IMG/VR virus record: IMGVR_UViG_2778261642_000006
From: a virus
Taxonomy: Duplodnaviria > Heunggongvirae > Uroviricota > Caudoviricetes
DNA length: 42,980 nt
Direction: 5' to 3' (one strand)
Both the position numbers and the translations under genes were made by a program. The notes under the pieces were generated by a model. The model made no database searches. It was not told the origin of the DNA and saw nothing but the letters and a program-made list of their open reading frames with translations. Shown in pieces: positions 2,490 to 19,692 of the stretch; position 1 is the first letter of the stretch, and every line of letters starts with the position of its first letter.

Positions 2490-2685
2490 TTCTGATCCTC
2501 TTCAAAAGGCTACCTGTTACTGGTCGATTTAAGTCAACCTTTACCGCTGATTCGTGGAACAGATACTCTCTTCCATCCTTAACCGGAGGAGGGAATATCC
2601 TGCATTCGCGCACCCATCGACGAACTGTTTCAAGGCTTCTTGGGCGTCGCTGGCGTGCGTTCCACTCCTGAAGTGTCAAGTACAT
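2467..2685 (-). CDS. xis: Excisionase, lambda Xis-like
   Basis: 72 aa from internal Met MYLTLQEWNARQRRPRSLETVRRWV…; matches recalled lambda Xis; the longer track ORF (to 2775) is an upstream in-frame extension. Confidence 0.9.
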   Translation of the reverse strand: MYLTLQEWNARQRRPRSLETVRRWVRECRIFPPPVKDGREYLFHESAVKVDLNRPVTGSLLKRIRNGKKARS

Positions 2686-2802
2686 CGCAAAGTCTCCGCA
2701 ATTACACGCAAGAAAAAGCCGCATTGATGCGGCGATGGTAGGTCTGGATATCATTGAGCAATGAACAGGCCTCACCGAGTGTGAGGCGGTGTTATTTCAT
2801 GG

Positions 2803-3147
2803 TTAGTCCTTGCGTAGCTCGCTGATTCTTCTGTAAGTCTCTGGTGCTTTGTTCCCGTACGTCTTCATTTCAGACTTCAACAGAGCAACGAGTGAATCCC
2901 ATTCGTTGAGGATTCCTTTGAATGCCGGAACGCGCTTTGCAACCTTGTCGAATGAATCTCTGATTTCTGGAATATGCTCAACAAGTGCAACGCATCGCCG
3001 GAAGTCTGCTGCGTCATGTGGAGCGCCGAAGTGATGACCATAGATATTCTTTTTCAGTCCACATGCGATTGAGGCAAGAGTTGCGCTACTGATGCCAACA
3101 TCGCCAGTCGATTGCCATTTCAAAACCTTCATAGCCAAATCTGACAT
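2803..3147 (-). CDS. Hypothetical protein (early-left accessory gene)
   Basis: 114-aa ORF with GGAG-type RBS, located just downstream of a minus-strand terminator hairpin. Confidence 0.55.
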   Translation of the reverse strand: MSDLAMKVLKWQSTGDVGISSATLASIACGLKKNIYGHHFGAPHDAADFRRCVALVEHIPEIRDSFDKVAKRVPAFKGILNEWDSLVALLKSEMKTYGNKAPETYRRISELRKD

Positions 3148-3160
3148 TTCTTGTCTCCAA

Positions 3161-3182
3161 TAAAAAAACCGCCATCAGGCGG
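3161..3182 (-). terminator. Intrinsic terminator (CCGCC-tgat-GGCGG + U-tract) in the early-left operon
   Basis: Forward strand reads aaaaaaaccgccatcaggcgg; on the minus strand this is a GC stem followed by TTTTTTTA. Confidence 0.6.
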
Positions 3183-3248
3183 CTTGGTGTTCTTTCAGTT
3201 CTTCAATTCGAATATTGGTTACATTGTTTTCATATATGAATAAATAAA

Positions 3249-3428
3249 TTAGCTTTTTTCGTTGCCTTCGCGTTCTTTATTAATTTTGACAAACTCGTTT
3301 TTACCACGCTCTCCAAATGCGTCTTTAGAGTCGTTGTATCCGCAATCGCAGCACACATAATCATCAGACCATCCACGCATTGTTTTTTCTTTTGCAATAT
3401 TTCCAGAACCGCATTTTGGACAAGACAT
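3249..3428 (-). CDS. Small zinc-ribbon protein (CPKC…CCDC)
   Basis: 59 aa from MSCPKCGSGN…; two Cys pairs; GGAGG RBS 7 nt upstream of the ATG. Confidence 0.5.
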   Translation of the reverse strand: MSCPKCGSGNIAKEKTMRGWSDDYVCCDCGYNDSKDAFGERGKNEFVKINKEREGNEKS

Positions 3429-3524
3429 ATCACTACCTCCAAAGCATGAGTGAGATGACAACGTAACATTGATTGGAGATTAACAATAGATTGCTGATGT
3501 AAAAGATATGTATAAGCTTCGCTA

Positions 3525-4151
3525 TCAAAGTGGAGGCTCTGGTAGCGGCATCCAGTACAAGGCGTTCCCTAACCACGATAAAGTGCCGTCGCTCAACTCC
3601 ACGTATTCCCCTTGTACCTGTCCTGCCATATACTCGCCGTGCTTTGAATAAATTAAAATCCAATCATCTTGAGCGGGCATTCGCTCACTACAGCTTATCC
3701 AACCATCCGGAGTTACCGGAGAGTTGCCGGGTTCTTTAATGTGCAATCGAGGCTCACCATCTTTTGGTTCAGGCCACTGGCGCTCCATGTTGATCTTCAA
3801 TTTATTTTCCATTGCAGCGGTAATTTCAGCATCACTGATACCAGCACGGCGCTGTGCATCCCACAACAGAAACTGCATATCAGCCCACTCGCTAAGATCG
3901 TCTGGTTCGGCTGCGGCTTCCAGTGCCTCTTTTGAGAGGTGTTTCAGTGGACCAATGGGGCCAACGCAGCCAAATGTGGAGTCAGACCATTTGGCATGCT
4001 CGTGGCGAATCTGTTCGCGTTCCAGTGATGCCAGTGCAATTCGTGCCAGTTCTTCCGCTTCTTCTGCTGGCAGTACAACGTTGCTACCAGGTCCGTATGT
4101 TTCGCGCCACTGCTTGATTGTCAGCAGTCGATCTTTGGTAATAGTGGTCAT
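3525..4151 (-). CDS. Putative MazG-like dNTP pyrophosphohydrolase with C-terminal DUF551-like domain
   Basis: 208 aa; N-terminal region resembles phage dATP/dGTP pyrophosphohydrolase, C-terminus (…DGWISCSERMPAQDDWILIYSKHGEY…YWMPLPEPP) resembles DUF551; recalled family assignment. Confidence 0.6.
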   Translation of the reverse strand: MTTITKDRLLTIKQWRETYGPGSNVVLPAEEAEELARIALASLEREQIRHEHAKWSDSTFGCVGPIGPLKHLSKEALEAAAEPDDLSEWADMQFLLWDAQRRAGISDAEITAAMENKLKINMERQWPEPKDGEPRLHIKEPGNSPVTPDGWISCSERMPAQDDWILIYSKHGEYMAGQVQGEYVELSDGTLSWLGNALYWMPLPEPPL

Positions 4152-4153
4152 AG

Positions 4154-4345
4154 CTATTTCACCTTAATCTCAACATTTCGCAGCTTTAGCTCCACTGGCA
4201 GGTCTGACTTTCCGGTTAAAGCTAATGCGAGATTTTCTGGAGTAATGAGAGCTGTTATTGTTTTCCCCATCGCCAGACGAATAATCATTCGTATCTCGCA
4301 ATCGTCACATGCTCCCGGTCGAACAATTGATATTTGTCCGTTCAT
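4154..4345 (-). CDS. Hypothetical small protein
   Basis: 63-aa ORF tightly packed between neighbouring genes (stop 3 nt from the next start). Confidence 0.45.
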   Translation of the reverse strand: MNGQISIVRPGACDDCEIRMIIRLAMGKTITALITPENLALALTGKSDLPVELKLRNVEIKVK

Positions 4346-4346
4346 C

Positions 4347-4799
4347 TCACTTCCCCTTCACACCAATGTTGGCGGCGGCGCGCTCGGCTTCACTTTGTTC
4401 CCAAAACCACTTGTGAAGCGCCATAAGCTTTTCGTCAATCGGTGCATATTTGCGATTAAAGTAGGCCTGAGCATCTTTCTCAGATTCGTCCGGTAATTCG
4501 CCAGGGCCAAACAGTGTGTTATAAATCCATGCCAGTCCGCTTTTAGCGTCGCCAGTCGATTGCCATTCGATAATGGCAGCCTGCATGACCAGAATGTTTT
4601 TCCCGATTAATAGGTCCAGTTCTTTGTACCTGTTGCGGATGTATGCATTCTCGCTTTGTAATTCAGCGTTTCGCTTCTCTGCTGCTTCTATCTCATCCAG
4701 CAGCGCGTTAGCTTCATACTCTCTCAACACCACTGTGTCGAAGCTTTCGGCCTGCTTTTTGATTTTTGCAATCAGCGCCTGTTTGTTGATGTTGCTCAT
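4347..4799 (-). CDS. Ea22-like coiled-coil protein
   Basis: 150 aa from MSNINKQ…; GGAG RBS; start overlaps upstream stop as ATGA; coiled-coil composition typical of lambdoid Ea22-like proteins. Confidence 0.55.
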   Translation of the reverse strand: MSNINKQALIAKIKKQAESFDTVVLREYEANALLDEIEAAEKRNAELQSENAYIRNRYKELDLLIGKNILVMQAAIIEWQSTGDAKSGLAWIYNTLFGPGELPDESEKDAQAYFNRKYAPIDEKLMALHKWFWEQSEAERAAANIGVKGK

Positions 4800-5113
4800 T
4801 TGGCGGACTCCTGTGCTCCAAGTTTTGCCCATACTTCAAGGCTGTTATGCGAAATCAGCGCTTCGCGAACGCATGGCCTGTAGTAGTGATGGAAAGCGAA
4901 GGTCATGCCGATCTTTGTCGGGCGATTGTGTTTGCCAAGCAATCCCAGGCGAATACAGATAGTCGTTGCCGTGTAGCCAGAGTGATAGCCAGCAGCACGC
5001 TTCATGACTGTTTCTGCCAGAATGGTGCGGAAATCAGTGCGCCCGAAATTGGTACCTTCGAAAGCGGCGTTAACCACTTCGTCTGTAAGATGTGAATCAT
5101 CAACTATGCTCAT
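4796..5113 (-). CDS. Hypothetical protein
   Basis: 105 aa from [14 protein letters not shown]…; RBS GGGGGAAG; ATGA overlaps on both sides. Confidence 0.5.
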   Translation of the reverse strand: MSIVDDSHLTDEVVNAAFEGTNFGRTDFRTILAETVMKRAAGYHSGYTATTICIRLGLLGKHNRPTKIGMTFAFHHYYRPCVREALISHNSLEVWAKLGAQESAK

Positions 5114-5637
5114 ACCGCTTCCCCCTGACGAAGCTGGGCGGCGAACTCGTCGCATACGTGCGTTAAAGAGCAAATCTGGATAGCAGGATGCTCGCGCAAC
5201 AATTCAACACCCTGCGCCCGTACTTCAGCCAGGAAAGCATCGGTGGCCGGAGTTTCAGGAATCCGTCTCCTCATCAGTTCTATTGCATGATTGAACCCGA
5301 AATCTTCAGCAAGAGATACGTCATCCATATTGTCATTGTCGTCCTCAATATCCCGTGGTTCTGGAATTGCAGACTTTATTACCGCATTCTCCGCCGCTAG
5401 CGCCGAAAACTTCTCGTGTGCCAACTTAACAGCCGCATCAGCCTGCTTAATTGACTCAATCGCTTTCTGGTGGTCTTCGGACAGAGCCGAAATCTTGGCC
5501 TCCGCTTCAGCAAATTTACGCACCAGATATTCAGCGTTTGTTTCGTTAACCTTTAAATCTCGCGGGATGCATTTACCTTTCAGAAATCCATCCATCTCAA
5601 TTAGTGACATTTGTTTCATTTCTTCCCACTCCGCCAC
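5110..5637 (-). CDS. Ea22-like coiled-coil protein (start uncertain)
   Basis: 175-aa ORF; acidic coiled-coil sequence; several candidate start Mets near 5637. Confidence 0.5.
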
Positions 5638-5798
5638 ATCGCATTCAGATATTTGTTGTCATTAACAGAGCCGAAACTATTTCTCTTAAGCAATTCCTCT
5701 CTCGATGGCATTGGCTTTACGCGTTGGCGAATAATCATTTCTGCCGGAAGAATGCCGGGATTGTATGCAAGTCCTCTCATGGTAAATTCCTCAGTCAT
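5616..5798 (-). CDS. Hypothetical small protein
   Basis: 60 aa from [15 protein letters not shown]…; start overlaps the stop of the upstream gene. Confidence 0.35.
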
Positions 5799-6084
5799 TA
5801 CTGATAGCGCCATAGCGTGAGCGGTAATTACGCAGGCGCGGGTCAATTTCAGGGAAGTGGGTATATGTGGCTTTGCGGAATGGTCGGATTGATGTCTGGT
5901 AAATTCGCTCGCGTTCTTCTTTCTCTGCAAGCCATATACAATGGCGAAATTCCTTTTCCTCTTTCGTTTCCTGCGGTAGCGACATTATCCGGTCGTAGTT
6001 TTTCCTGAATTTATCCAGCACCTCCGATACGGAATTGCCGGAACAGCGGCGCGCGTCATCCGCACCATACAGAGGCGCTGGCAT
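5791..6084 (-). CDS. Hypothetical protein
   Basis: 97-aa ORF with AGGAG RBS 7 nt upstream. Confidence 0.5.
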
Positions 6085-6097
6085 GATTTTCTCCTGA

Positions 6098-6604
6098 TTA
6101 AATAGCGTGAATAGCGTGACGAGGGAAGGGGAGAGTTACTGGTGCAAAGGGTATATCGTCGTCAAAATCCATCGGAGGTTCGTTGTGTTGTGCTGGTGAT
6201 GATTGCTGCTGTGGCTTCTGTGATTGCCTGCTGGCTGCTTGTTGTTTGCTGTCGCCAATGCCGCCAAGCATTTGCATCACGCCATTAATTCCGACATGAA
6301 CCTCGGTTGTGTAACGGTCTTGCCCTGACTGGTCTTTCCACTTTCTGGTTCTCAGCATTCCCTCGAAATAAATCTGATCACCTTTTTTCACATACTGCCC
6401 CACGACCTCAGCCAGTTTCCCGGATACAGCAACACGATGCCATTCAGTCAATTCCTTTTGCTCGCCAGTATTTTTATCTCGCCATTGTTCTGATGTGGCT
6501 ATTGTCAGGTTAGCGAACGCTGTTCCTGATGGTGAGTATCGAACTTCCGGGTCTTGTCCTACCCGACCAAGGATTATCACCTTATTTATCCCGCGAGAAC
6601 TCAT
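6098..6604 (-). CDS. ssb: Single-stranded DNA-binding protein
   Basis: [44 protein letters not shown]… OB-fold; Gln/Pro-rich tail ending DDDIPF; RBS GAGGTGGAG. Confidence 0.9.
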
Positions 6605-7068
6605 TTGCTCCACCTCTTGCCAGTTTTTATGTTGCTTATAATTGATTGAGATACACCCATGTCTTTTGCTATCTTGTACTGACTCTCTTTTTCAGAGAGT
6701 CTTTTCCTAATTTCTATAACCTGCCACTCTGTTAATTTTGCACCATGATGAGCATGACCTTTCTTGGCTCCACGATGCCTTCCTTTTGCTATCTTGTCGT
6801 CCATGTTTTCTTGCGCGCTACCTAAAAAGAGATGTTCAGGATTAACGCAGCATGGGTTATCGCATTTGTGGCAAACCATCTTCCCAGATGGAATGGGGGA
6901 GTGATAAAGCTCAAAAGCAACCCGATGAGAAAGCATTGTTACGCCAAAGGCTACAAATTTTGTGTATCCTCCTTTGTTTTTTGAATAGGTAGACTCCCAG
7001 CAACCTGTTGTTTCATTAACTTTGTAGCTGGACTCGAATCTTTTAATAATTCCGTCCAAGTGAGACAT
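6601..7068 (-). CDS. HNH endonuclease
   Basis: 155 aa; Cys/His-rich HNH-like core (…[26 protein letters not shown]…); sits between recombinase and ssb. Confidence 0.75.
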
Positions 7069-7776
7069 TTATGCCGCCTGTTTTAGTTCGTTAACTCTGA
7101 TGTTCATTACCTGAACGCATTTAGCCTGCGCCTCCTCGTTGCCAGCCATTAATTGCCAGTCACGCTGATAACGCTCGATGAGTTTTTTCTTGTCAGTTTC
7201 TGTTGACGCATAATCGCTGAAGTCTTTCAGGATTTGCTCGCAGTCAACCGATGGAGATTTCTGGTTGGTATTTTCTGGTGATGGTTTGTTATCTGATGCT
7301 GGCATTGCCCATCCCGGCAGCGATGGAGGGGACCAGTAAAATCCTGTTCCATCTTTCAGTTTTGCCCTGTGCCATCCCTGCTTTTTATCGAGAGATGTTT
7401 GTGCGAAACCTTCCTCAAGGTTATACAGATACCGACCGATTCCCCACTGAACGGCAGCACGCTTCATTGCACCGGAACGACCACCTTTGACGGCTTCTAC
7501 CTGCGTGTTTTCAGCAGCATCCCATTTGGTTACCCATTCGGAATCAATCTTGATTGATATGCCGCATTCAACTCCGCCGTTGTTGGGAATATCGCGGTAT
7601 TCATTGCGCCATCCTGCTTTGCCGCAAACATCGTCCAGGCGTTTCATGATTGCCCTGTTCGTGACATAAGCCAGCACCATAGCCCACACTTTTCCATCGC
7701 GTGTTTTACCGCTTTGCTGTATTCGCCATTCGATATCTTCAGGGCTGAATGGCTCGTCGAATTTATTCAAATTCAT
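7069..7776 (-). CDS. Rad52/Rad22-family single-strand annealing recombinase (Sak-like)
   Basis: 235 aa; …KRAAVQWGIGRYLY… motif typical of phage Rad52-like annealing proteins; occupies the bet position. Confidence 0.75.
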   Translation of the reverse strand: MNLNKFDEPFSPEDIEWRIQQSGKTRDGKVWAMVLAYVTNRAIMKRLDDVCGKAGWRNEYRDIPNNGGVECGISIKIDSEWVTKWDAAENTQVEAVKGGRSGAMKRAAVQWGIGRYLYNLEEGFAQTSLDKKQGWHRAKLKDGTGFYWSPPSLPGWAMPASDNKPSPENTNQKSPSVDCEQILKDFSDYASTETDKKKLIERYQRDWQLMAGNEEAQAKCVQVMNIRVNELKQAA

Positions 7777-7875
7777 AATTCACCTCAGAATGGACATGGC
7801 CCAAGGAAATAACGCTGATTTAATACTTCGACTCGGGACAAATTAAGGCATACCAGCATTCCTTCGCGGTCGCCA

Positions 7876-8034
7876 TTATGGCGATACAAGAGAGCTTTCT
7901 GCGTGTACATGCGTCTCTGTAACTTGCTCTCCTTCACTGTGGTTGCAAGTGACATGAATATCTCCTTCGTTACCGATTAATTCTTTCATCTGACGAATGA
8001 ATTCTTCGTCTGACCAGTTATCTGTAAAACTCAT
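7876..8034 (-). CDS. Hypothetical small protein at the kil position
   Basis: 52 aa from MSFTDNWSDEEF…; start overlaps the cIII-like stop (ATGA); position only. Confidence 0.4.
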   Translation of the reverse strand: MSFTDNWSDEEFIRQMKELIGNEGDIHVTCNHSEGEQVTETHVHAESSLVSP

Positions 8035-8201
8035 GGACGGCCTTGTTGTTTCAAAATATCCCAAAGCTTTTCGAGCAAACTTTTCATTCTTGGTTGTTTA
8101 AAGTCTGCTCCGGTTAAAATATTTTTTCGTGAATGCTGTACCGATAAAATCGGGTTGAAAGGGCGAACCGATGCCGCCCCTGCAATAGCGAACTGTTGCA
8201 T
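8031..8201 (-). CDS. cIII: cIII-like protein (putative FtsH inhibitor)
   Basis: Hand-translated 56-aa ORF MQQFAIAGAASVRPFNPILSVQHSRKNILTGADFKQPRMKSLLEKLWDILKQQGRP with GGAG RBS; resembles recalled lambda CIII (MQYAIAG…LIDILNQPG); under 60 aa so absent from the ORF track. Confidence 0.65.
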   Translation of the reverse strand: MQQFAIAGAASVRPFNPILSVQHSRKNILTGADFKQPRMKSLLEKLWDILKQQGRP

Positions 8202-8415
8202 AGGATGCTCCTTCTGTTTGATTGCATAACGAAAAACGCCTCGAGTGAAGCGTTATTGGTATGCATATAAAAAGGCCCTCACACTGGAGGGCAAAGAAGA
8301 TTTCCAATAATCAGAACAAGTCGGCTCCTGTTTAGTTACGAGCGACATTGCTCCGTGTATTCACTCGTTGGAATGAATACACAGTGCAGTGTTTATTAGT
8401 ATGCCTGTCTTTTAA

Positions 8416-8997
<582 letters not shown>

Positions 8998-9085
8998 GTG
9001 ATATAGATTTACCTTTAATTTTCTGGCGTCCTCTGCATGTTATGCCGCGTTCGCCAGGCTTGCGGTAGTAAATTCGGTTATTTAT

Positions 9086-9111
9086 GTAATAAAAACCCGC
9101 CTTAGCGGGTT
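9086..9111 (-). terminator. Intrinsic terminator after the first pL gene (tL1-like), possibly bidirectional
   Basis: AACCCGC-ctta-GCGGGTT hairpin; minus strand continues TTTTTATTAC; plus strand continues with a weaker T-rich tract. Confidence 0.65.
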
Positions 9112-9112
9112 A

Positions 9113-9556
9113 TTATTTCTTTGGATTTAGCTTTTCCATGTTCTCTGCGATCGTACCTATTCTTGACCTTATTGTTGGAACATCAATTCCTCTCTGTATG
9201 TCTACATTTAAAGACATAAGCTCTCTGCTCCATCCTGCGATCGCATCGTGAAATTGTCTTGCCCTGCTTGCTTGTCTACGTCTGCTGCTTTCAAGCTCTG
9301 TAAGCATTTGCTTTGCTTCGATCTGAGACTTGCCTTGCCCAACTCCCAATGCATCGATTGCACATTGCTTCATCTCTGCTTTTATCAAAGGGTGAAGATT
9401 TTCAGCGCCAATAAAAATTACCTCGTCTATGCTTTTAAAAAGCAGAAGGCAATCAGTAACAACTTTGGTTCTTTTATCATCACACCTTACCTCTACCGAA
9501 GGTACGCCGCCATATTGCTTAACTCTCATTGCCGTGTAAACTGTAGCACTCTTCAA
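9113..9556 (-). CDS. Hypothetical protein at the N/Nun position (not N-like)
   Basis: 147-aa ORF starting at TTG with AGGAGG RBS 5 nt upstream (or ATG 9 codons in); first gene after the pL leader; no arginine-rich N-terminal motif. Confidence 0.55.
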   Translation of the reverse strand: MKSATVYTAMRVKQYGGVPSVEVRCDDKRTKVVTDCLLLFKSIDEVIFIGAENLHPLIKAEMKQCAIDALGVGQGKSQIEAKQMLTELESSRRRQASRARQFHDAIAGWSRELMSLNVDIQRGIDVPTIRSRIGTIAENMEKLNPKK

Positions 9557-9644
9557 ATCAGCCTCCTTTTTCTTTTTCTATATCAAAAAGCTGCTTTGCT
9601 TTTTGTGACTAAAAGCAAAAAAGCCTTCTCGCTAATGAGCAGCA

Positions 9645-9706
9645 TTGCCGTTCATCCTGAACCCGCCGCGCTCCCGACGCATGGTTTAAAGACGCGCCGT
9701 TCGTCT
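9645..9706 (-). promoter_or_regulatory. Conserved leader element L (candidate nutL/put-like antitermination site)
   Basis: Minus-strand GAACGGCGCG…GCGTCGGGAGCGCGGCGGGTTCAGGATGAACGGCAATG aligns with the element after cro; followed by a stem-loop before the first pL gene. Confidence 0.45.
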
Positions 9707-9720
9707 ATGGGTTTATGATG

Positions 9721-9808
9721 TACTTAAAGTTCATTAATGTAAAGTACCAATAGTACATTTTATGGATATAAAAAGCTCACTACATCATAAGTTAGTGAAC
9801 TTTAAGGA
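9721..9808. promoter_or_regulatory. Putative OL operators / pL promoter region
   Basis: Partial copies of the OR half-site (…TTAAAGTTCA…, …ATAAGTTAGTGAACTTTAAG…) between cI and the pL leader. Confidence 0.35.
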
Positions 9809-9817
9809 AATTTATTT

Positions 9818-10525
9818 TTATCCGAATCGCTTGTAATCGATTGACTGCCTAATGAGGACTTTGGCTAGAATGTGAAGTTGCTCTTCTTCACCTTCTTCTA
9901 TGTACCATCGATCATAAGCGGCATTGTCAGAGATGACGGCAAGCCTGTTCTTTTGCATTTGCAGGCGCTTAACGTGCATTGTTTTCCCGTATACAAACAC
10001 ATAAATGCCATCGCCATCAAAACAGGTTATGGATACATCAACAAAGATCTCATCTCCCGGATTGATGGTTCCCTCCATGCTGTCACCGCGAACCGTGATG
10101 ACTTTTACGCTTTCCTGTGGCCTTCCATTAAATAAAATTCTTGCCTGCTCGGTCGTATATTCAATTGCTCTTATCTTTTCTATAAATTCATTGGAAACCA
10201 TGGTTCCTGGCCCGGCGCTCGCCTGAACATCCAATACATCAACACGATAATAATCATTTGATCTTGATAGATGATTTACCGTGATACCGTCATCATCAGC
10301 ATAGCCATGCAGATATGCAGCAGTAGTTCCCAGCACCGAAGCCAGAGATTCCATCTTGTCTTTTCTTGGTATTGACTCCCCGTTGAACCATTTACTAATG
10401 GCTTTTGGTGTGACCTTAAGCCTGACAGCTAAATCAGCCTGCCTACCATGCAAAGGTAATCCCGCTTTATCACAGGCCAGCGCAAGCCTCTGCGAGAAAG
10501 TTTCACGCTCTTTCTGTTGAACCAT
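9818..10525 (-). CDS. cI: CI-type repressor (HTH_XRE + S24/LexA-like peptidase domain)
   Basis: HTH region (…QADLAVRLKVTPKAISKWFNGESIPRKDKMESLASVLG…) and C-terminal S24 motifs (GDSMEGT…HVKRL); divergent from cro across operators; start ambiguous (in-frame ATGs near 10525, 10570, 10582). Confidence 0.8.
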   Translation of the reverse strand: MVQQKERETFSQRLALACDKAGLPLHGRQADLAVRLKVTPKAISKWFNGESIPRKDKMESLASVLGTTAAYLHGYADDDGITVNHLSRSNDYYRVDVLDVQASAGPGTMVSNEFIEKIRAIEYTTEQARILFNGRPQESVKVITVRGDSMEGTINPGDEIFVDVSITCFDGDGIYVFVYGKTMHVKRLQMQKNRLAVISDNAAYDRWYIEEGEEEQLHILAKVLIRQSIDYKRFG

Positions 10526-10589
10526 AAGTTCAACTATATTAGGTATTGACTGTACTATCAGTTCCGTCATAATATGAACCATAAGTTCA
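10517..10589. promoter_or_regulatory. OR operator region: two near-perfect 17-bp palindromes plus a degenerate middle site; pR/pRM
   Basis: TTGAACCATAAGTTCAA (~10517..10533) and ATGAACCATAAGTTCAC (~10575..10589) with TTGACTGTACTATCAGTTC between; lies between cI and cro. Confidence 0.6.
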
Positions 10590-10604
10590 CCACAGGAGAG
10601 AAGC

Positions 10605-10835
10605 ATGAACGAAGTTACGTTTGGAGAAGTTATCAAATCCGTTCGAGTTTCTGTTGTGGCTGATGTTTGTGGACTTACGCCAAAAGCCATCTATAAGTGG
10701 CTTGAGCGTGGTTCTCTGCCGCGTACCGAGTTCACTGGTGAAACCGAATATGCGGATAAGATCGCCAAGGCATCAGGCGGCAAGTACTCAGCAGCACAGA
10801 TTCGCCGTATCGGTAAACAGCAGTTTGTTATGTAA
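10605..10835 (+). CDS. cro: Cro-like repressor
   Basis: 76 aa; HTH (…VADVCGLTPKAIYKWLERGSL…); GGAGAG RBS; divergent to cI directly downstream of operators. Confidence 0.8.
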   Translation: MNEVTFGEVIKSVRVSVVADVCGLTPKAIYKWLERGSLPRTEFTGETEYADKIAKASGGKYSAAQIRRIGKQQFVM

Positions 10836-10856
10836 TAAAAATGTACTTTTAGTACC

Positions 10857-10912
10857 GAACGGCCCGGTATACGGTCGGGTGCCCGGCGTGGTCAAGGATG
10901 ACTGTCAATGGT
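10857..10912 (+). promoter_or_regulatory. Conserved leader element R (candidate nutR/put-like site)
   Basis: GAACGGCCCGGTATACGGTCGGGTGCCCGGCGTGGTCAAGGATGACTGTCAATG; ~75% identical in blocks to element L. Confidence 0.45.
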
Positions 10913-10956
10913 GCACGATAAAAACCCAAATTATTTACCTATGGAGATAGTAAGAA

Positions 10957-11256
10957 ATGACACAAGCAAGCTACAGCAAGCCAACACAGCGAGAAATTGA
11001 TCGCGCAGAAACAGATTTACTCATCAACCTGTCAACGCTTACCCAGCGCGGTCTGGCAAATATGATTGGCTGTCATGAATCGAAGATAAGCAGAACGGAC
11101 TGGAGATTTATTGCTTCGGTCTTGTGTGCTTTCGGAATGGCATCAGACATCAGTCCGATTAGCAGGGCTTTTAAGTATGCGCTTGATGGACTCACCAATA
11201 AAAAACGCCCGGTGTGCAAGACCGAGCGTTCTGATCAAATACAAATGGAATTTTAA
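10957..11256 (+). CDS. cII: CII transcriptional activator
   Basis: 99 aa; C-terminus …LTNKKRPVCKTERSDQIQMEF matches recalled lambda CII …LTNKKRPAATERSEQIQMEF. Confidence 0.9.
   Translation: MTQASYSKPTQREIDRAETDLLINLSTLTQRGLANMIGCHESKISRTDWRFIASVLCAFGMASDISPISRAFKYALDGLTNKKRPVCKTERSDQIQMEF
11198..11229 (-). terminator. OOP-like antisense RNA terminator (to) within the cII 3' end
   Basis: Minus strand reads CGCTCGG-tcttgcaca-CCGGGCG followed by TTTTTTATT, the same position as lambda to/oop. Confidence 0.5.
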
Positions 11257-11278
11257 CAACATCCAGCGAGGTAATTAT

Positions 11279-11551
11279 ATGCGAAACAAAGGCTTTAATC
11301 CACCTGATACACACAAAGAAGTTAAGCGTTTGCGCTTCCTTCGTTCCATTGATGAAAGAACTCAAATCTCTTTTGTGAAAGTTGCCAGAACTGAGCTTCT
11401 GAAGGCTGAGGCGAGGGCGTTGCTCCCGTCTCTACCAAAAGAGGAGGGATATAGGCTCATTCCAAACGCATTTCTGGAAAAGCTGCTCAAAGAAGACATA
11501 TCCGTAAGTCAGTTTAACGATGTTCTTAAGGTCTTTCGTCAAGGCAGGTAG
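11279..11551 (+). CDS. Hypothetical protein between cII and the replication initiator
   Basis: 90 aa from MRNKGFNPPDTHKEVKRLRFL…; the longer track ORF (from 11111) overlaps cII. Confidence 0.45.
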   Translation: MRNKGFNPPDTHKEVKRLRFLRSIDERTQISFVKVARTELLKAEARALLPSLPKEEGYRLIPNAFLEKLLKEDISVSQFNDVLKVFRQGR

Positions 11552-11553
11552 TT

Positions 11554-12501
11554 ATGAGCAATACAGCAAAAATCTACGATTTCAGCGCCGCACACGAGCG
11601 CAGGAGCAACAGGATGGAGAACCAGAAAACTGGTTACATTCCGTTGTACCGGAGCATTCTGAAACAGTCATGGGCGAAAGATGTTTATCTTCGCACCCTG
11701 TGGGAAAACCTTCTCCTGAATGCCGCCAGAAAGCCATACAAAGCGAATTTCAAAGGTCATGAATGGCATCTGCAACCCGGTCAACTGGTTGTGACAGCAG
11801 CTGATTTAGGTCTTCAGTTATGCGACAGGCATGGCAAGCCGGCAAGCCGTGATCAGGTTGAGCGGATGCTTCAGGTTTTTGTGAAAGAGGGGATGATCTC
11901 CATTGATGGAGAGAAGCAAAAAGGTCGTGTGATCACCATCACAAATTACCATGAATATGCTCAAAAAATGGACGATTCACCCGCACATGAAGCCGCACAA
12001 ACAACCGCACATGATGCCGCACATGATGAAGCCAGTAATGGCGCGGCATTCAGCGTACATGCCGCACATGAAAGCGCACATGAAGCCGCACAAACAACCG
12101 CACATCATGAACAAGAAGGTATTAACAAGAATATAAATAATACCCCCCTACCCCCCAATGGGGGAGGCGATGGGCAGGTTAAACCTGAACGTCGCAAGGC
12201 AGAACGCATCGACTACGAATCCTTCCTGAACGCCTACAACACCGAAGTCGGTGACAGACTTCCACACGCTGTTGCGGTCAACGAGAAACGCAAACGCCGC
12301 CTGAAGAAAATCATCCCGCAACTGAAAACGCCAAACGTGGACGGTTTCAGAGCGTATGTCAGGGCGTTTGTGCATCAGGCCAAGCCGTTTTACTTCGGAG
12401 ACAACGACACGGGCTGGGTGGCAGATTTTGATTACCTGCTGAGGGAGGATTCGTTAACGGGAGTTCGGGAAGGGAAGTTTGCAGACAGGGGGATTGCATG
12501 A
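11554..12501 (+). CDS. Replication initiator (lambda O / P22 gene 18 analogue)
   Basis: 315 aa; position after cII; contains the iteron array and its repeated [10 protein letters not shown] peptide; stop overlaps helicase start (ATGA). Confidence 0.75.
11975..12165. repeat. Putative origin of replication: CCGCACATGA-type iterons, AT-rich tract, C6/G5 inverted repeat
   Basis: At least 8 copies of (C)CGCACATGA(A/T)G within ~130 bp, then aagaatataaataata and cccccctaccccccaatggggga. Confidence 0.6.
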
Positions 12502-13874
12502 AACAGGATATCGAAGCGAGCGTTATCGGTGGCCTGCTGATTGGTGGATTAACACCAATTGCCAGTGACGTTCTGGCAACGCTTGAGCCGGAAGCGTTTT
12601 CAATTCCGCTCTACCGGAAAGCCTTCGAGGTTATCCGCAAGCAGGCGCGAAACAGAAATTTAATCGACGCGCTGATGGTTGCCGAGGCGTGCGGAGAGGA
12701 ACATTTCACGTCAATCCTGATGACCAGCAAAAACTGCCCGAGTGCCGCAAACCTGAAGGGATATGCCGGAATGGTCGCGGATAATTATCACCGCCGTCTG
12801 GTGCTGGAAATCATGGATGAAATGCGTGAACCAATTCAGAGCGGAACCATCGACGCATCGAGTCAGGCGATGGATGAACTTGTAAAGCGTCTTTCAGCCA
12901 TCAGAAAGCCCCGTGACGAGGTTAAACCTGTACGGTTAGGGGAAATCATCACTGACTACACTGACACGCTTGACAGGCGTCTGAGGAACGGAAAAGAGTC
13001 AGATACCCTGAAGACCGGAATCGAAGAACTTGACGCCATCACCGGAGGGATGAACGCAGAAGACCTGGTGATAATCGCCGCTCGTCCTGGTATGGGGAAA
13101 ACCGAGCTGGCGCTGAAGATTGCCGAAGGCGTTGCAAGCCGTGTTATTCCTGGTTCTGACGTCCGGCGCGGAGTATTGATTTTCTCGATGGAAATGAGCG
13201 CATTGCAGATTGCAGAGCGAAGCATCGCCAACGCCGGGAGGATGTCGGTTAGCGTGCTGCGAAATCCTGCATCGATGGATGACGAAGGCTGGGCGCGCGT
13301 TGCTAACGGCATGAGTCAGCTTGCAGATTTGGATGTATGGGTGGTCGATGCCTCGCGGTTATCGGTCGAAGAAATACGCTCAATCGCAGAACGGCACAAA
13401 CAGGAAAATCCAAACCTCTCACTCATCATGGCGGATTATCTTGGCCTGATTGAGAAGCCGAAAGCAGACCGCAACGACCTCGCAATTGCTCACATCTCCG
13501 GAAGCCTGAAGGCGATGGCGAAAGACCTGAAAACGCCTGTTATCTCCCTGAGTCAGCTTTCGCGCGATGTTGAGAAGCGACCAAACAAACGCCCGACAAA
13601 CGCAGATTTGCGTGATTCAGGAAGCATTGAACAGGACGCAGACTCAATCATCATGCTCTATCGGGAAGCAGTATATGACGAGAACAGTAGCGCCGCGCCA
13701 TTTGCTGAAATCATTGTGACAAAAAACCGTTTTGGCTCACTTGGTACGGTTTACCAGCGGTTCTGCAACGGACACTTTGTTGCATGTGACCAGGATGAAG
13801 CCAGACAGATTTGCACAGCATCAAATGCACCTGCTGCGCGTGGCAGACGATATGCACAAGGGGCTGACGTATGA
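12498..13874 (+). CDS. Replicative DNA helicase, DnaB-like
   Basis: 458 aa; Walker A ([12 protein letters not shown]) and DnaB-family motifs (…[17 protein letters not shown]…[13 protein letters not shown]…). Confidence 0.9.
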
Positions 13875-13900
13875 CCATCTACATCACTGAGCTAATAACA

Positions 13901-13930
13901 GGCCTGCTGGTAATCGCAGGCCTTTTTATT
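13901..13930 (+). terminator. Intrinsic terminator after the helicase (tR2-like)
   Basis: GGCCTGC-tggtaatc-GCAGGCC followed by TTTTTATTT. Confidence 0.7.
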
Positions 13931-13946
13931 TGGGGGAGAGTAAATC

Positions 13947-14153
13947 GTGGTTGAGTTGATTTTTTCTGCATTGAGGATTCTCGGTGCTATGTGGATGGTG
14001 GCGACGTTCATTGTGGTTGCCAGCAGTTTTGTCCGGCTGGTAGGCGAAGGTAAAGACCTGGTTGGTGTGCTTTTCGGTAGCATTTTCCTGTGGGTGATTA
14101 TCGGTGTTGCGCCTGTAGCTGTAGCAAAAATGGCGTGGCGTTTTGTGAGTTGA
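13947..14153 (+). CDS. Small two-helix membrane protein
   Basis: 68 aa, GTG start after GGGGGAGAG RBS; two hydrophobic segments. Confidence 0.4.
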   Translation: MVELIFSALRILGAMWMVATFIVVASSFVRLVGEGKDLVGVLFGSIFLWVIIGVAPVAVAKMAWRFVS

Positions 14154-14170
14154 ACTGAGGGTAAGTATCG

Positions 14171-14437
14171 ATGGACGAATCAAGAAAGCAGTTTGAAGAA
14201 TGGTTTAAAAACAAATATCACGTTTCAAGTGACGTGATGAAGATTATGCACATCAAGGTCGAGATTGCATGGGAGGCATGGCAGGCATCGCGAGCAGCTA
14301 TTGAAATTGAGCTGCAAAAGCCAAAGAAAGGCCCACTTCCCGGTGATTATCACATTGGCTATGACTCAGGTGCAGAATCACAATACGAAAGCGATGTAGA
14401 GGCCATCCGCGCTGCTGGGGTTAAAGTGAAGGAGTGA
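14171..14437 (+). CDS. Hypothetical protein
   Basis: 88-aa ORF in the nin region. Confidence 0.5.
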   Translation: MDESRKQFEEWFKNKYHVSSDVMKIMHIKVEIAWEAWQASRAAIEIELQKPKKGPLPGDYHIGYDSGAESQYESDVEAIRAAGVKVKE

Positions 14438-14439
14438 GT

Positions 14440-14646
14440 ATGACAAATCAGCAGCAAATAGAGTTCATCCTTGAGCAGATCCGAAAAATGCGAGAAAAGA
14501 ACCAGCCAGACATGATGGAAATATGGAGACGCCAGCAGGAAGAATACCGCAAGCATATTTTTGGTGAGAGAAAACAGGATGACTGGAGCCTATATGGCTA
14601 TGGCACCAGGACAAATAAAAACGGATATAGCCTTTACACATATTGA
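14440..14646 (+). CDS. Hypothetical protein
   Basis: 68 aa from MTNQQQIEFILEQ…; AGGAG RBS. Confidence 0.45.
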   Translation: MTNQQQIEFILEQIRKMREKNQPDMMEIWRRQQEEYRKHIFGERKQDDWSLYGYGTRTNKNGYSLYTY

Positions 14647-14654
14647 GGAATTCC

Positions 14655-15065
14655 ATGAAACAGACAATTTTCCTCAGGAGTAAGCAACAACAGCAAGCCG
14701 CAATCAACGCCATCCTCGCAACACCACTCGATAAAGACAAGCCAGTTACCATCCGCATTACTGACTACAAGCGCAACCTTGACCAGAACGCAAAATTTCA
14801 CGCGATGCTGGCGGATATCGCAAGTCAGGTTCAATGGTGCGGCAAATGGTTAAAACCAGAACAATGGAAGGTTTTGTTGATAAGCGGTCATGCAGTGGCT
14901 ACAAAGCAGGAAGCTGATGTTTTGCCCGGGCTTGAAGGCGAATACGTCAACATTCGCGAAAGCAGCGCGCAGATGAGTGTGAAGCGTATGGCAAGTCTGA
15001 TTGAGTACACGACAGCCTGGGCTATTGGTCAGGGTGTCAGATTTACCGACAGGAGGTATGAATGA
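14655..15065 (+). CDS. ninB: NinB recombination protein
   Basis: 136 aa from [11 protein letters not shown]…; …[27 protein letters not shown]… matches recalled lambda NinB pattern. Confidence 0.8.
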
Positions 15066-15238
15066 GGCGACAGCGACGAAGTTTCACCGACATCATCTGC
15101 GAAAACTGCAAATACCTTCCAACGAAACGCTCCAGAAATAAACGCAAGCCAATCCCAAAAGAATCTGACGTAAAAACCTTCAACTACACGGCTCACCTGT
15201 GGGATATCCGGTGGCTAAGACATCGTGCGAGGAAATGA
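15062..15238 (+). CDS. ninE: NinE
   Basis: Hand-translated 58 aa [58 protein letters not shown], near-identical to recalled lambda NinE; ATGA overlaps on both sides. Confidence 0.75.
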
Positions 15239-16224
15239 CGATGACTGCGTATTACAACGAAATAGATCCGTATGCAGCGCAATGGCTGCGTAACTTAATT
15301 GACGCTGGAGAAATTGCCCCCGGTTATGTAGATGAAAGGAGTATTGAAGATGTCACACCAGGTGATTTGCGAGGATTTACCCAGCACCACTTTTTTGCAG
15401 GAATCGGAGTTTGGAGCTATGCACTTAGAAAAGCAGGATGGCCAGACAACAAGAGTATCTGGACAGGAAGTTGCCCATGCCAACCTTTCAGCTCGGCAGG
15501 CAAAGGAAAAGGGGTTGATGACGAGCGGCACTTATGGCCGGCATTCTTCTGGCTTATTGAAAAATGCAATCCTGGCATCGTTATTGGCGAACAGGTTGCA
15601 AGCGCAGACGGCCTCGCTTGGCTCGACCTTGTACAAACTGACTTGGAAGGTGCGAACTACACCTCTGCAGGTACCGATATTTGCGCTGCGGGCTTCGGTT
15701 CTCCGCACATCAGGCAGCGATTGTATTGGGTGGCCTACTCCAACGACAAATATCAACTTTCAGCCAGAGACGCGCAGGGGAATTCAGAACCTATCTGGAT
15801 GCGTGAGACTAGCGGGATGGCAAACTCCTTTAGCGAACGATGCAACAGGTTCAACGCATTGCTACAGCGGAAAAGACAAGAGCGGAACCCCAAGAATCTG
15901 CTTGAAACTTCCCGGGACGGTGAAGCTATGTACCCATTACCGGTTAACGGCTTCTGGAGAGATGCAGACTGGCTTTACTGTAGAGATGAAAAATATCGTC
16001 CAGTTAGACCCGGCTCATTCCCGATGGTTAATGGCATTGCCAAAAGCTTGGGACGAGGCAAGTCCACACTGGGAAGAATGGCAAAGCGCAATCAAGATCA
16101 GCGAATTATTGGATATGGAAACGCAATCAATGCAGAAGTAGCAACGGCATTCGTGAAAGTTTGTATGGAGGTTGTTAATGCTTATCCCATCCCAATCCAT
16201 TCAATACCAGAAAGAAAGCGTTGA
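15235..16224 (+). CDS. DNA (cytosine-5)-methyltransferase, orphan
   Basis: Motif [12 protein letters not shown], catalytic PCQ ([16 protein letters not shown]), ENV-like region; no restriction endonuclease partner seen. Confidence 0.85.
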
Positions 16225-16354
16225 GCGGGCTTTAACGTGCGCTAACTGCGGTCAGAAGCTGCATGTGCTGGAAGTTCACGTGTGCTCCGATTGCTGCGCA
16301 GAACTGATGAGCGATCCGAATAGCTCGATGCACGAGGAAGAAGACGATGGCTAA
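16178..16354 (+). CDS. ninF: NinF
   Basis: 58 aa [66 protein letters not shown]; matches recalled lambda NinF. Confidence 0.75.
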   Translation: MLIPSQSIQYQKESVERALTCANCGQKLHVLEVHVCSDCCAELMSDPNSSMHEEEDDG

Positions 16355-16913
16355 ACCAGCGCGAAGACGATGTAACCGTAAAAGAGAAGATTTAACTGTT
16401 AAAAGGATATTTGAGTTACTAAGTTTCGATAAATCTACCGGGGTATTTAGATGGAAAGTTCCCACTCAGGGAAGGATAGCATTAAATAGTGTTGCTGGAA
16501 CTTTTGATTCCAACGGTTATTCAATGATCATGATAGATGGGCGTAGATATAAAACTCACATCTTAGTTTTTTACATAACTCATAATCGCTGGCCTGCTGG
16601 TCAAATTGACCACGTTAATGGAATTAGGACCGACAATAGGCCAGAAAATTTAAGAGAATGCCTGCCAATAGAAAATTCAAGAAATATAAGGATCCGAAAG
16701 AACAGCAAATCAGGTTGCAGAGGAGTTACTTGGCACAAACGACAGAAAAAATGGAATGTTAGGCTAGGTTTCCATGGCAAGAGTAAACACTTCGGATGCT
16801 TTGATGATCTGGAGTTAGCGGTACTAGTTGCTGAAGAAGCCCGAGATAAGTATTACGGTGATTTTTCCGGCAACGAAAGGAGCACTTATGCGAATCTATC
16901 GAAGGAAATGTAA
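16347..16913 (+). CDS. HNH endonuclease with AP2-like DNA-binding domain, apparently inserted at the ninG 5' end
   Basis: Begins MAKPARRRC (recalled NinG N-terminus) then HNH motifs (…[18 protein letters not shown]…) and AP2-like segment (…[31 protein letters not shown]…). Confidence 0.75.
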
Positions 16914-17490
16914 ATGTTGCAATGAATGGTTTATACCAAAATATCAAAATCAATATTGGTGTAATGAGATTTGTGGAACCAAGATAGCACTCGAACGACG
17001 AAGTAAAGAACGCGAAAAAGCGGAAAAAGCAGCAGAGAAGAAACTACGACGAGAGGAGCAGAAACAGAAAGATAAACTGAAGATTCGAAAACTCGCCTTA
17101 AAGCCCCGCAGTTACTGGATTAAACAAGCACAACAAGCCGTAAACGCCTTCATCAGAGAAAGAGACCGCGACTTACCATGTATCTCGTGCGGAACGCTCA
17201 CGTCTGCTCAGTGGGATGCCGGACATTACCGGACAACTGCTGCGGCACCTCAACTCCGATTTGATGAACGCAATATTCACAAGCAATGCGTGGTGTGCAA
17301 CCAGCACAAAAGCGGAAATCTCGTTCCGTATCGCGTCGAACTGATTAACCGCATCGGGCAGGAAGCAGTAGACGAAATCGAATCAAACCATAGCCGCCAT
17401 CGCTGGACTATCGAAGAGTGCAAGGCGATCAAGGCAGAGTACCAACAGAAACTCAAAGACCTGCGAAATAGCAGAAGTGAGGCCGCATGA
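16888..17490 (+). CDS. ninG: NinG (Rap-like recombination protein), N-terminus replaced
   Basis: From [15 protein letters not shown]…; from …[24 protein letters not shown]… onward matches recalled lambda NinG; AAGGAG RBS inside the HNH gene 3' end. Confidence 0.75.
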
Positions 17491-17693
17491 CGTTCTCAGT
17501 AAAAACCATTCCAGACATGCTCGTTGAAGCATACGGAAACCAGACAGAAGTAGCACGCAGACTGAAATGTAGTCGCGGCACGGTAAGAAAATACGTTGAT
17601 GATAAAGACGGGAAAATGCACGCCATCGTCAACGACGTTCTCATGGTTCATCGCGGATGGAGTGAAAGAGATGCGCTATTACGAAAGAATTGA
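17487..17693 (+). CDS. ninH: NinH
   Basis: 68 aa [37 protein letters not shown]… matches recalled lambda NinH. Confidence 0.8.
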
Positions 17694-18342
17694 TGGCAGC
17701 AAATACCGAAATGTTTGGGTAGTTGGCGATCTGCACGGATGCTACACGAACCTGATGAAAAAACTGGAGACGATAGGATTCGACACCAAAAAAGACCTGC
17801 TTATCTCGGTGGGCGATTTGGTTGATCGCGGTACAGAGAACGTCGAATGTCTGGAATTAATCACATTCCCCTGGTTCCGAGCTGTACGTGGAAACCATGA
17901 GCAAATGATGATTGATGGCTTATCAGAGCGTGGAAACGTCAATCACTGGCTGTTTAATGGCGGTGGCTGGTTCTTTAATCTCGATTACGACAAAGAAATT
18001 CTGGCTAAAGCTCTTGCCCATAAAGCAGATGAACTTCCGTTAATCATCGAACTGGTGAGCGAAGGTAAAAAATATGTCATCTGCCACGCCGATTATCCCT
18101 GTGACGAATACGAGTTTGGAAAGCCAGTTGATCATCAGCAGGTAATCTGGAACCGCGAACGAATCAGCAACTCACAAGACGGGATCGTGAAAGAAATCAA
18201 AGGAGCGGACACGTTCATCTTTGGTCATACGCCAGCAGTGAAACCACTCAAGTTTGCCAACCAGATGTATATCGATACCGGCGCAGTGTTCTGCGGAAAC
18301 CTCACATTGATTCAGGTACAGGGAGAAGGCGCATGGGCATAA
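17671..18342 (+). CDS. ninI: Ser/Thr protein phosphatase (NinI, lambda PPase-like)
   Basis: From [28 protein letters not shown]…; metallophosphatase motifs GDLHG, GDLVDRG, GNHE. Confidence 0.9.
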
Positions 18343-18851: not shown

Positions 18852-18858
18852 CCATAAT
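18829..18858 (+). promoter_or_regulatory. Late promoter pR'-like (TTGACA, 17-18 nt spacer, CATAAT)
   Basis: gtcTTGACAtgcaattagccatttagcCATAATat at the 3' end of Q, ~45 nt upstream of the tR' hairpin. Confidence 0.6.
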
Positions 18859-18898
18859 ATTCACATATGCTGCTGCTTTTGCATTCAGCAACCATCAC

Positions 18899-18924
18899 AA
18901 GCCCACCTCCTGTGGGCTTTTTTG
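18899..18924 (+). terminator. tR'-like intrinsic terminator
   Basis: AAGCCCAC-ctcct-GTGGGCTT followed by TTTTTTGC. Confidence 0.75.
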
Positions 18925-19687: not shown

Positions 19688-19692
19688 AATAT

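What the first reader, a model, noticed from the sequence alone, without database searches (positions are those of the whole stretch)
9645..10912. Conserved ~60-nt element in both early leaders, with no recognisable N gene
The pL leader (minus strand, ~9645..9706) and the segment just after cro (~10857..10912) share ordered blocks GAACGGC…CG…GTCGGG…GC.CGGCG…TCA.GGATGA…CAATG. No ORF resembling lambda N, P22 gp24 or HK022 Nun is present. This arrangement recalls HK022-type put RNA antitermination, or a divergent nut pair for an unrecognised factor.
Basis: partly seen in the sequence, partly recalled or inferred. Interest (0 to 1): 0.65.

Follow-up and report, generated by a model that had tools for sequence, protein, structure and literature searches.

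The report
Exact copies of HK022 putL/putR
The two similar ~65-nt leader elements are base-for-base copies of phage HK022's putL and putR antiterminator RNAs, a well-studied system with a solved cryo-EM structure, sitting in an E. coli prophage that carries the HK022 immunity region; the finding is real but already known.

Summary
Window 9576..11212 is 99.2% identical to the phage HK022 immunity region. The two elements are HK022 putL (window 9637..9706, minus strand, +3..+72 of the pL transcript) and putR (10853..10916, plus strand, between cro and cII), each 100% identical to the HK022 sequence.

- **Similarity:** it is far above chance (0 of 2000 shuffles reach the observed score).
- **Structure:** all 23 base pairs I inferred from the putL cryo-EM description are kept in putR, seven of them through changes on both sides. 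Seventeen putL variants from other phages add further covariation.
- **Other copies:** a covariance model built from putL-type sequences alone finds putR (E 1e-8) and nothing else in the window.
- **N, Nun and nut:** there is no intact N or Nun gene and no boxA/boxB. The only trace is a 30-codon C-terminal remnant of a lambda-type N gene (8993..9082).
- **The Nun slot:** it holds a 147-aa ORF of unknown function. Most put-carrying phage contigs also lack a recognisable Nun, so this is not unusual.
- **Late genes:** an ordinary Q antiterminator is present.

Verdict: already known and ordinary, so low interest. The rival idea, a divergent nut pair serving an unknown factor, is rejected.

The parts
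9715..9743 (-). pL promoter (-35 TTTACA at 9738..9743, -10 CATCAT at 9715..9720); transcription start about 9708
   Evidence: Positions transferred from the annotation of phage O276 (window = locus + 8075). The same pair of hexamers was found by the promoter scan. The start at 9708 comes from matching the cryo-EM numbering A3GACG7 to the sequence. There is one A/G difference from HK022 at 9712 (position -4).
9637..9706 (-). putL antiterminator RNA (+3..+72 of the pL transcript): stem I (helix 3-7/15-19 plus helix 10-14/30-34) and stem II (36-72)
   Evidence: 100% identical to HK022, O276 and HK75 putL. Annotated as putL in O276 and HK75. The covariance model scores it at 100.8 bits. Covariation across 17 variants supports the fold.
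9681..9686 (-). -10-like AACCAT (+23..+28) inside putL, proposed site of a sigma70-dependent pause; it ends at the critical U28
   Evidence: Position and proposed role come from PMC9378689. The sequence was read directly.
9614..9615 (-). C94/U95 pause site that putL suppresses in vitro
   Evidence: PMC9378689 numbering mapped onto alignment A2, which is identical to HK022 here.
9580..9629 (-). A/U-rich hairpin followed by UUUUU, terminator-like; it lies in the last stretch shared with HK022, whose homology ends at about 9576
   Evidence: MFE -17 kcal/mol, z = -2.8 against shuffles. Conserved in HK022, HK75 and O276. A terminator function is inferred, not shown.
9113..9556 (-). 147-aa ORF of unknown function in the slot where HK022 has nun (TTG start preceded by AGGAGG)
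   Evidence: Matches phrog_13686 end to end at E 4e-92, function unknown. No Pfam, NCBIfam or PADLOC hit. No match to Nun or N.
9094..9111 (.). Bidirectional intrinsic terminator-like hairpin after the 147-aa ORF; a barrier on the pL transcript
   Evidence: Terminator scan, both strands. Fold -13.3 kcal/mol, z = -4.2.
8993..9082 (-). Remnant of a lambda-type N gene (last 30 codons only)
   Evidence: 24 of 30 residues identical to lambda N residues 104-133. PGAP labels it a pseudogene, 'antitermination protein N, incomplete', in E. coli YP3.
9818..10525 (-). cI repressor (HK022 type)
10546..10573 (+). pR promoter (TTGACT, 16-nt spacer, CATAAT)
   Evidence: O276 annotation and promoter scan.
10605..10835 (+). 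cro (HK022 type)
10842..10856 (+). OFR operator (TGTACTTTTAGTACC); its right end overlaps the first bases of putR
   Evidence: Transferred from the HK75 annotation 'similar to HK022 OFR' through alignment A3.
10853..10916 (+). putR antiterminator RNA, about 273 nt downstream of the pR start, between cro and cII
   Evidence: 100% identical to HK022 and O276 putR. Annotated as putR in O276 and HK75. Found by the putL-only covariance model at 44.7 bits, E 1.4e-8. All 23 putL pairs are preserved, 7 of them by double changes.
10957..11256 (+). cII
   Evidence: Pfam Phage_CII, E 2e-35.
13900..13923 (+). Strong terminator-like hairpin after the DnaB-type helicase gene; a barrier on the pR transcript before the nin region
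   Evidence: Terminator scan. Fold -15.7 kcal/mol, z = -2.9.
18333..18919 (+). Late control, separate from put: Q antiterminator gene (18333..18851), pR'-like promoter (18829..18858), terminator (18899..18919)
   Evidence: Pfam Phage_antitermQ, E 8e-26. Promoter and terminator scan.

Best explanation
The two elements are the putL and putR sites of phage HK022, carried on an HK022-type immunity module in a mosaic prophage with P22-like structural genes, next to ybhC in E. coli. When RNA polymerase transcribes each site from pL or pR, the nascent RNA folds into a V-shaped two-stem structure. It binds the zinc-binding domain of the beta' subunit and the beta flap tip of the same polymerase at the RNA exit channel. 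This holds the enzyme in a non-swiveled state and hinders formation of terminator hairpins. The polymerase then reads through pauses and through intrinsic and Rho-dependent terminators for many kilobases. No phage protein is needed and there is no N/nut system. In this window the modified polymerase would read through the hairpins at 9580..9629, 9094..9111 and about 8235..8292 leftward, and 13900..13923 rightward. That allows expression of the recombination genes on the left, and of the nin genes and Q on the right. What is shown here: sequence identity, position, fold conservation, absence of N, Nun and nut, and terminator-like sites downstream. What is taken from the literature on the identical RNA: polymerase binding and antitermination. 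What is inferred: that it operates in this prophage.
For: - Identity: 99.2% to HK022 over window 9576..11212. putL and putR are 100% identical to HK022, and O276 and HK75 annotate the same bases as putL/putR.
- Position: putL starts at +3 of the pL transcript and putR lies about 273 nt from the pR start. This matches the published 'just downstream of PL' and '~270 nt downstream of the PR start'.
- Critical residues: every residue named as critical in the cryo-EM and mutagenesis study is present, because the sequence is identical (A3-G7, A9, U28, G35, G43-G47, G45, A64, the unpaired U68, and the C94/U95 pause).
- Fold within the window: all 23 pairs of the putL fold are kept in putR, with 7 double-sided and 1 single-sided change.
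- Fold across phages: in 17 distinct putL variants, 96.7% of cells pair, against 23-54% for slid controls. Six pairs change on both sides. The covariation score is 0.173 against 0.058 +/- 0.011 in shuffles (0 of 500 reach it).
- Number of copies: the putL-only covariance model hits putR at E 1.4e-8, and the next hit has E about 0.9.
- No N/nut system: no boxB or boxA above chance, and no intact N or Nun.
- Barriers: terminator-like hairpins lie downstream on both transcripts.
Against: - Nothing in the sequence argues against it.
- Minimum-free-energy folding alone does not single the elements out (z = -0.73 and +0.23). It predicts the older stem I model rather than the cryo-EM fold.
- Rfam has no put family, so there is no curated-model confirmation.
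- Helix 10-14/30-34 and the top of stem II never vary in my sample. The search pattern fixed those bases, so they carry no covariation evidence.
- My list of base pairs is inferred from the paper's text, not read from its figure or coordinates.
- Function in this particular prophage was not tested. nun, the usual neighbour in HK022, is absent.
Confidence: 0.93

Rival explanations
1. A divergent nut-like pair that recruits an unrecognised phage antitermination protein, for example the 147-aa ORF that occupies the N/Nun slot immediately downstream of putL.
For: The 147-aa ORF is the first gene of the pL operon, as N is in lambda, and has no known function. It follows a putL-type element in 15 of 74 phage loci.
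Against: HK022 has the identical putL and putR without this ORF, and there the RNA works with purified RNA polymerase alone. Of the 74 putL-type loci, 59 lack the ORF. There is no boxA or boxB. The ORF has no arginine-rich N-terminal motif like N or Nun and no similarity to either.
Confidence: 0.02
2. The similarity is a duplicated operator or coding fragment with no function in the leader RNA.
For: Operator-like GTAC repeats (oL1 and OFR) lie just upstream of both elements, and OFR overlaps the first bases of putR.
Against: The shared blocks lie downstream of the operators, outside any ORF, and on the transcribed strand of each divergent operon. The differences between the two copies are concentrated in paired positions and are compensatory (7 double changes, 0 broken pairs). 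That pattern is expected for an RNA structure, not for a protein-binding DNA site or a coding remnant.
Confidence: 0.01
3. The put sites are intact relics in a defective prophage and are no longer used.
For: There is an N-gene remnant, and the module borders show past recombination. The sister prophage in E. coli YP3 has a broken helicase gene.
Against: In the window the immunity genes, replication genes (intact 458-aa helicase ORF at 12498..13874), Q, the lysis genes and P22-like morphogenesis genes are all present. Both put sites and both promoters are unmutated relative to HK022 apart from one base at -4.
Confidence: 0.05

Closest known systems
Phage HK022 putL / putR (polymerase-utilisation RNAs; cryo-EM structure PDB 7XUE, Hwang et al. 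2022, PMC9378689)
   Same: Identical sequence, identical promoters, operators, cI, cro and cII, and identical position in both early operons.
   Different: The gene after putL is a 147-aa ORF of unknown function instead of nun, and homology to HK022 stops about 60 nt after putL. The rest of the phage is P22-like (Kapi1, CUS-3, Sf101) rather than HK022/HK97-like. There is one base change at -4 of pL.
put sites of phages HK75 and O276 and of other lambdoid prophages (King et al. 2011, cited in PMC9378689 as the source of 'ten known put sequences')
   Same: Same family and same architecture. HK75 putL is identical and its putR differs at 2 positions.
   Different: Those phages carry nun. The King 2011 paper itself could not be read here.
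Lambda N / nutL-nutR antitermination
   Same: Same genomic logic: one site in each early leader, upstream of terminators, making RNA polymerase terminator-resistant.
   Different: nut RNA needs the N protein and host Nus factors, whereas put RNA acts alone. The window has no boxA or boxB and only a 30-codon fragment of N.

Membership tests
HK022-type put antiterminator RNA | Sequence homology to the experimentally defined putL and putR | tested here: met
   100% identity of both elements to HK022. The flanking 1.64 kb is 99.2% identical.
HK022-type put antiterminator RNA | One copy in each early operon on the transcribed strand: putL just after the pL start, putR about 270 nt after the pR start | tested here: met
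   putL spans +3..+72 of the pL transcript. putR begins about 273 nt after the inferred pR start, between cro and cII.
HK022-type put antiterminator RNA | Two-stem fold (stem I with helix 3-7/15-19 and helix 10-14/30-34; stem II 36-72 with unpaired U68), maintained by compensatory change | tested here: met
   23 of 23 pairs are kept between putL and putR, 7 by double changes. Across 17 putL variants 96.7% of cells pair, 6 pairs change on both sides, and 0 of 500 shuffles reach the covariation score. Caveats: the pair list was inferred from the text of PMC9378689, and some helices are invariant because the search pattern fixed them.
HK022-type put antiterminator RNA | Residues shown by mutagenesis to be required (A3-G7, A9, U28, G35, G45, A64, G43-G47) | tested here: met
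   All are present in putL by identity. U28, G35 and A64 are invariant in all 17 variants.
HK022-type put antiterminator RNA | Terminators downstream that must be read through | tested here: met
   Terminator-like hairpins lie on the pL path (9580..9629, 9094..9111, 8275..8292, 8235..8254) and on the pR path (13900..13923). This is pattern-level evidence only.
HK022-type put antiterminator RNA | Acts in cis, without phage proteins, by binding the beta' zinc-binding domain of RNA polymerase | not testable with these tools
   Known for the identical RNA (PMC9378689). Testing it in this prophage needs a reporter or in vitro transcription assay.
HK022-type put antiterminator RNA | Accompanied by nun (typical of HK022 but not a defining feature) | tested here: not met
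   No Nun homologue in the window. Only 12 of 74 putL-type loci have a recognisable Nun within 1.5 kb downstream, so Nun is not a family requirement.
Lambda-type N / nut antitermination | boxA and boxB in both early leaders | tested here: not met
   The boxB pattern gives 1 hit with 3 mismatches, at 29135, against 1.97 expected by chance. The boxA pattern gives 10 hits against 10.7 expected, none of them in the leaders. Only lambda-type consensus sequences were searched.
Lambda-type N / nut antitermination | Intact N gene as the first gene of the pL operon | tested here: not met
   Only the last 30 codons survive, at 8993..9082.

The most novel reading that the evidence does not exclude
The 147-aa ORF that replaces nun directly downstream of putL might be a new prophage-expressed exclusion factor or transcription factor, functionally analogous to Nun. 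It recurs in that slot in 15 of 74 put-carrying phage contigs, once together with nun. It would mark a second put-linked accessory cassette. The put elements themselves would remain ordinary.
Probability: 0.1. Interest if true: 0.45.

Novelty: already known. Interest (0 to 1): 0.1.

Why it matters
It matters little beyond correct annotation. The window should be labelled as carrying HK022 putL and putR, and the prophage as using RNA-only early antitermination plus Q for late genes. There are two modest by-products. First, put modules circulate among lambdoid phages of different morphotypes (here P22-like), and mostly without a recognisable nun. Second, Rfam has no put family, so automated annotation misses these elements. 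The 24 distinct variants aligned here (17 putL-type, 7 putR-type, from 31 found) could seed such a model.

Tried and rejected
- **Rfam scan** of 8500..12500 at E <= 10: no relevant family, and put is not in Rfam.
- **Single-sequence MFE folding:** the energies are not different from shuffles (z = -0.73 and +0.23), and the predicted stem I is the superseded model. Thermodynamics alone was therefore not used as evidence.
- **MAFFT alignment of putL with putR:** it misplaced the gap in the stem I loop. I compared L with R using a hand-anchored mapping and ran the pair-count tool on putL-type sequences only.
- **King et al. 2011**, the paper describing other put sites: not held in the library.
- **Search pattern on IMG/VR:** it also returned about a dozen GC-rich chance matches lacking the CAAT block and any phage leader context (for example L017, L025, L031, L036). 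These were excluded.
- **147-aa ORF:** no hit in Pfam, NCBIfam or PADLOC, and none in PHROGs beyond an unnamed family. The AlphaFold model (pLDDT 84) has no Foldseek match in the PDB at E <= 0.001.
- **ORF 8494..8997:** it occupies the place of lambda sieB but shows no similarity to it.
- **The 120-aa protein after putL in E. coli MBT-5**, annotated 'antitermination N domain protein': no BLAST similarity to Nun or to lambda N.

Full report
**What is there**

The region is the immunity region of a lambdoid prophage.
- cI lies at 9818..10525 (minus strand), cro at 10605..10835 and cII at 10957..11256.
- A megablast of window 9000..11300 against phage genomes shows that window 9576..11212 is 99.2% identical to phage HK022. 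It is 99.1% identical to phage O276 and 95.3% identical to HK75.
- The O276 and HK75 records annotate putL and putR inside this block.
- Transferred to the window (window = locus + 8075), the older annotation gives putL at 9637..9699 (-) and putR at 10860..10916 (+).
- With the cryo-EM numbering of Hwang et al. 2022 (PMC9378689), the pL transcript starts at 9708. putL (A3..C72) is then 9637..9706 and the equivalent putR is 10853..10916.
- Alignments with HK022, HK75 and O276 show that both window elements are 100% identical to HK022 putL and putR. The only nearby difference is one base at -4 of pL.

**Is the observation more than chance?**

Yes.
- The local alignment of the two leaders scores 35, against 13.6 +/- 2.2 for dinucleotide shuffles (0 of 2000 reach 35). 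Each element is the other's best non-self match in the window.
- The differences between the two copies fall where an RNA structure predicts. I mapped the 23 base pairs that I inferred from the published description onto putR: helix 3-7/15-19, helix 10-14/30-34, and stem II 36-72 with U68 unpaired.
- All 23 pairs are kept in putR. Seven are kept through changes on both sides and one through a change on one side.

**Related sequences**

- A pattern made of three conserved blocks found 94 stretches in IMG/VR viral contigs. After removing chance matches, these gave 21 distinct putL-type and 10 distinct putR-type sequences.
- I aligned 17 distinct putL variants, which differ within +1..+72. On that alignment the structure pairs in 96.7% of cells, against 23-54% when partners are slid by 1-3 columns.
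- Six pairs show changes on both sides. The covariation score is 0.173 against 0.058 +/- 0.011 in shuffles (0 of 500 reach it).
- One helix and the top of stem II are invariant because the search pattern fixed them, so they say nothing either way.
- A covariance model built from putL-type sequences only finds putL in the whole window (100.8 bits) and putR (44.7 bits, E 1.4e-8). The next best hit has E about 0.9. There are therefore exactly two put sites and no third.
- putL-like sequences occur in 37 of 5426 complete E. coli genomes.

**How it works**

The mechanism is established for the identical RNA and inferred for this prophage.
- According to PMC9378689, put RNA acts in cis on the polymerase that made it, without any phage protein.
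- It binds the beta' zinc-binding domain and the beta flap tip at the RNA exit channel, and it counteracts swiveling.
- It suppresses pausing and both intrinsic and Rho-dependent termination, over distances of at least 10 kb.
- The window retains the sequence features named in that paper: the C94/U95 pause site (9615/9614), the -10-like AACCAT at +23..+28 (9681..9686), U28, G35, A64 and U68.
- Terminator-like hairpins lie downstream on both transcripts. On the pL path they are at 9580..9629 (shared with HK022), 9094..9111, 8275..8292 and 8235..8254. On the pR path there is one at 13900..13923.
- Late transcription has its own ordinary Q-type antiterminator (18333..18851), with a pR'-like promoter and a terminator.

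**N, Nun and nut**

- tblastn with lambda N and HK022 Nun finds no Nun. For N it finds only the last 30 codons (8993..9082, 80% identical to the lambda N C-terminus).
- PGAP calls the same stretch an incomplete N pseudogene in the near-identical prophage of E. coli YP3.
- boxB and boxA patterns occur no more often than chance and not in the leaders.
- Homology with HK022 ends about 60 nt after putL. In place of nun there is a 147-aa ORF (9113..9556) of unknown function.
- This is not unusual. Among 74 putL-type loci with enough downstream sequence, 12 have Nun and 15 have this ORF. One locus, counted in both groups, has both. Four have another small protein, and 44 have none of the four reference proteins used as queries.

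**Rivals**

- A nut-like pair serving an unknown factor is rejected. HK022 has the identical RNAs without the 147-aa ORF, and they work with purified polymerase.
- A duplicated operator or coding fragment is rejected because the differences between the copies are compensatory in an RNA fold.
- A relic in a dead prophage cannot be excluded by sequence alone. It is unlikely, because the window carries apparently intact immunity, replication, Q, lysis and P22-like morphogenesis genes.

**Comparison and verdict**

This is a member of the HK022 put family by every feature that can be tested in silico. Only the biochemical feature, factor-independent binding to the beta' zinc-binding domain, cannot be tested here. 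It is not an N/nut system. Interest is low. The only loose end is the function of the 147-aa ORF in the Nun slot.

Noticed in passing
window 9113..9556 (-): A 147-aa ORF of unknown function is the first gene after putL, where HK022 has nun. It belongs to a small family confined to Enterobacteriaceae prophages (15 clusters). The AlphaFold model (pLDDT 84) shows a four-stranded sheet plus three helices, one of them 46 residues long, and has no PDB fold match. There is no defence-system, Pfam or NCBIfam hit.
   Followed up: partly
window 8993..9082 (-), together with terminator 9094..9111: The last 30 codons of a lambda-type N gene survive just downstream of the 147-aa ORF. The same ORF-plus-remnant arrangement recurs in 12 of the 15 loci that have the ORF after a putL-type element, so the two appear to move together as one cassette.
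   Followed up: partly
L068 (IMG/VR contig 3300011739_000034), downstream of its putL: One phage contig has both a Nun homologue (58% identity) and a 147-aa ORF homologue (78%) in tandem after putL.
   Followed up: no
L008:3204-3566 (E. coli MBT-5); also L015, L066, L087: A 120-aa protein that PGAP names 'antitermination N domain protein' follows a putL variant. It shows no BLAST similarity to lambda N or HK022 Nun and has no NCBIfam or PADLOC hit.
   Followed up: partly
alignment A5, column 31 (putL position A27); variants from L059, L037, L057, L085: Four of 17 distinct putL variants change or delete A27, the fifth base of the -10-like NANNAT at +23..+28. PMC9378689 reports that hexamer as identical in all known putL sequences. 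U28 is invariant in all 17.
   Followed up: no
window 1..42980 as a whole: The prophage lies next to ybhC. It combines a tyrosine integrase, an Erf/Rad52-type recombination module, HK022 immunity, a DnaB-type helicase, a nin region and Q with P22-like (Kapi1, CUS-3, Sf101) morphogenesis genes. put RNAs therefore control a phage with podovirus-type structural genes here.
   Followed up: partly
window 19046..19558 (+): An ORF with HNH endonuclease and AP2 domains sits between the Q/pR'/terminator region and the holin gene, that is, inside the late leader.
   Followed up: no
window 8494..8997 (+): A 167-aa ORF (phrog_1244, function unknown) is oriented against pL transcription, in the position that sieB occupies next to N in lambda. 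It shows no similarity to lambda SieB.
   Followed up: partly
L006, L007 (E. coli O111 strains): In many Shiga-toxin-producing E. coli (STEC) genomes, a putL variant with compensatory changes in helix 3-7/15-19, a putR and the 147-aa ORF are combined with a different repressor (XRE family, 243 aa). The put module therefore recombines independently of immunity specificity.
   Followed up: partly
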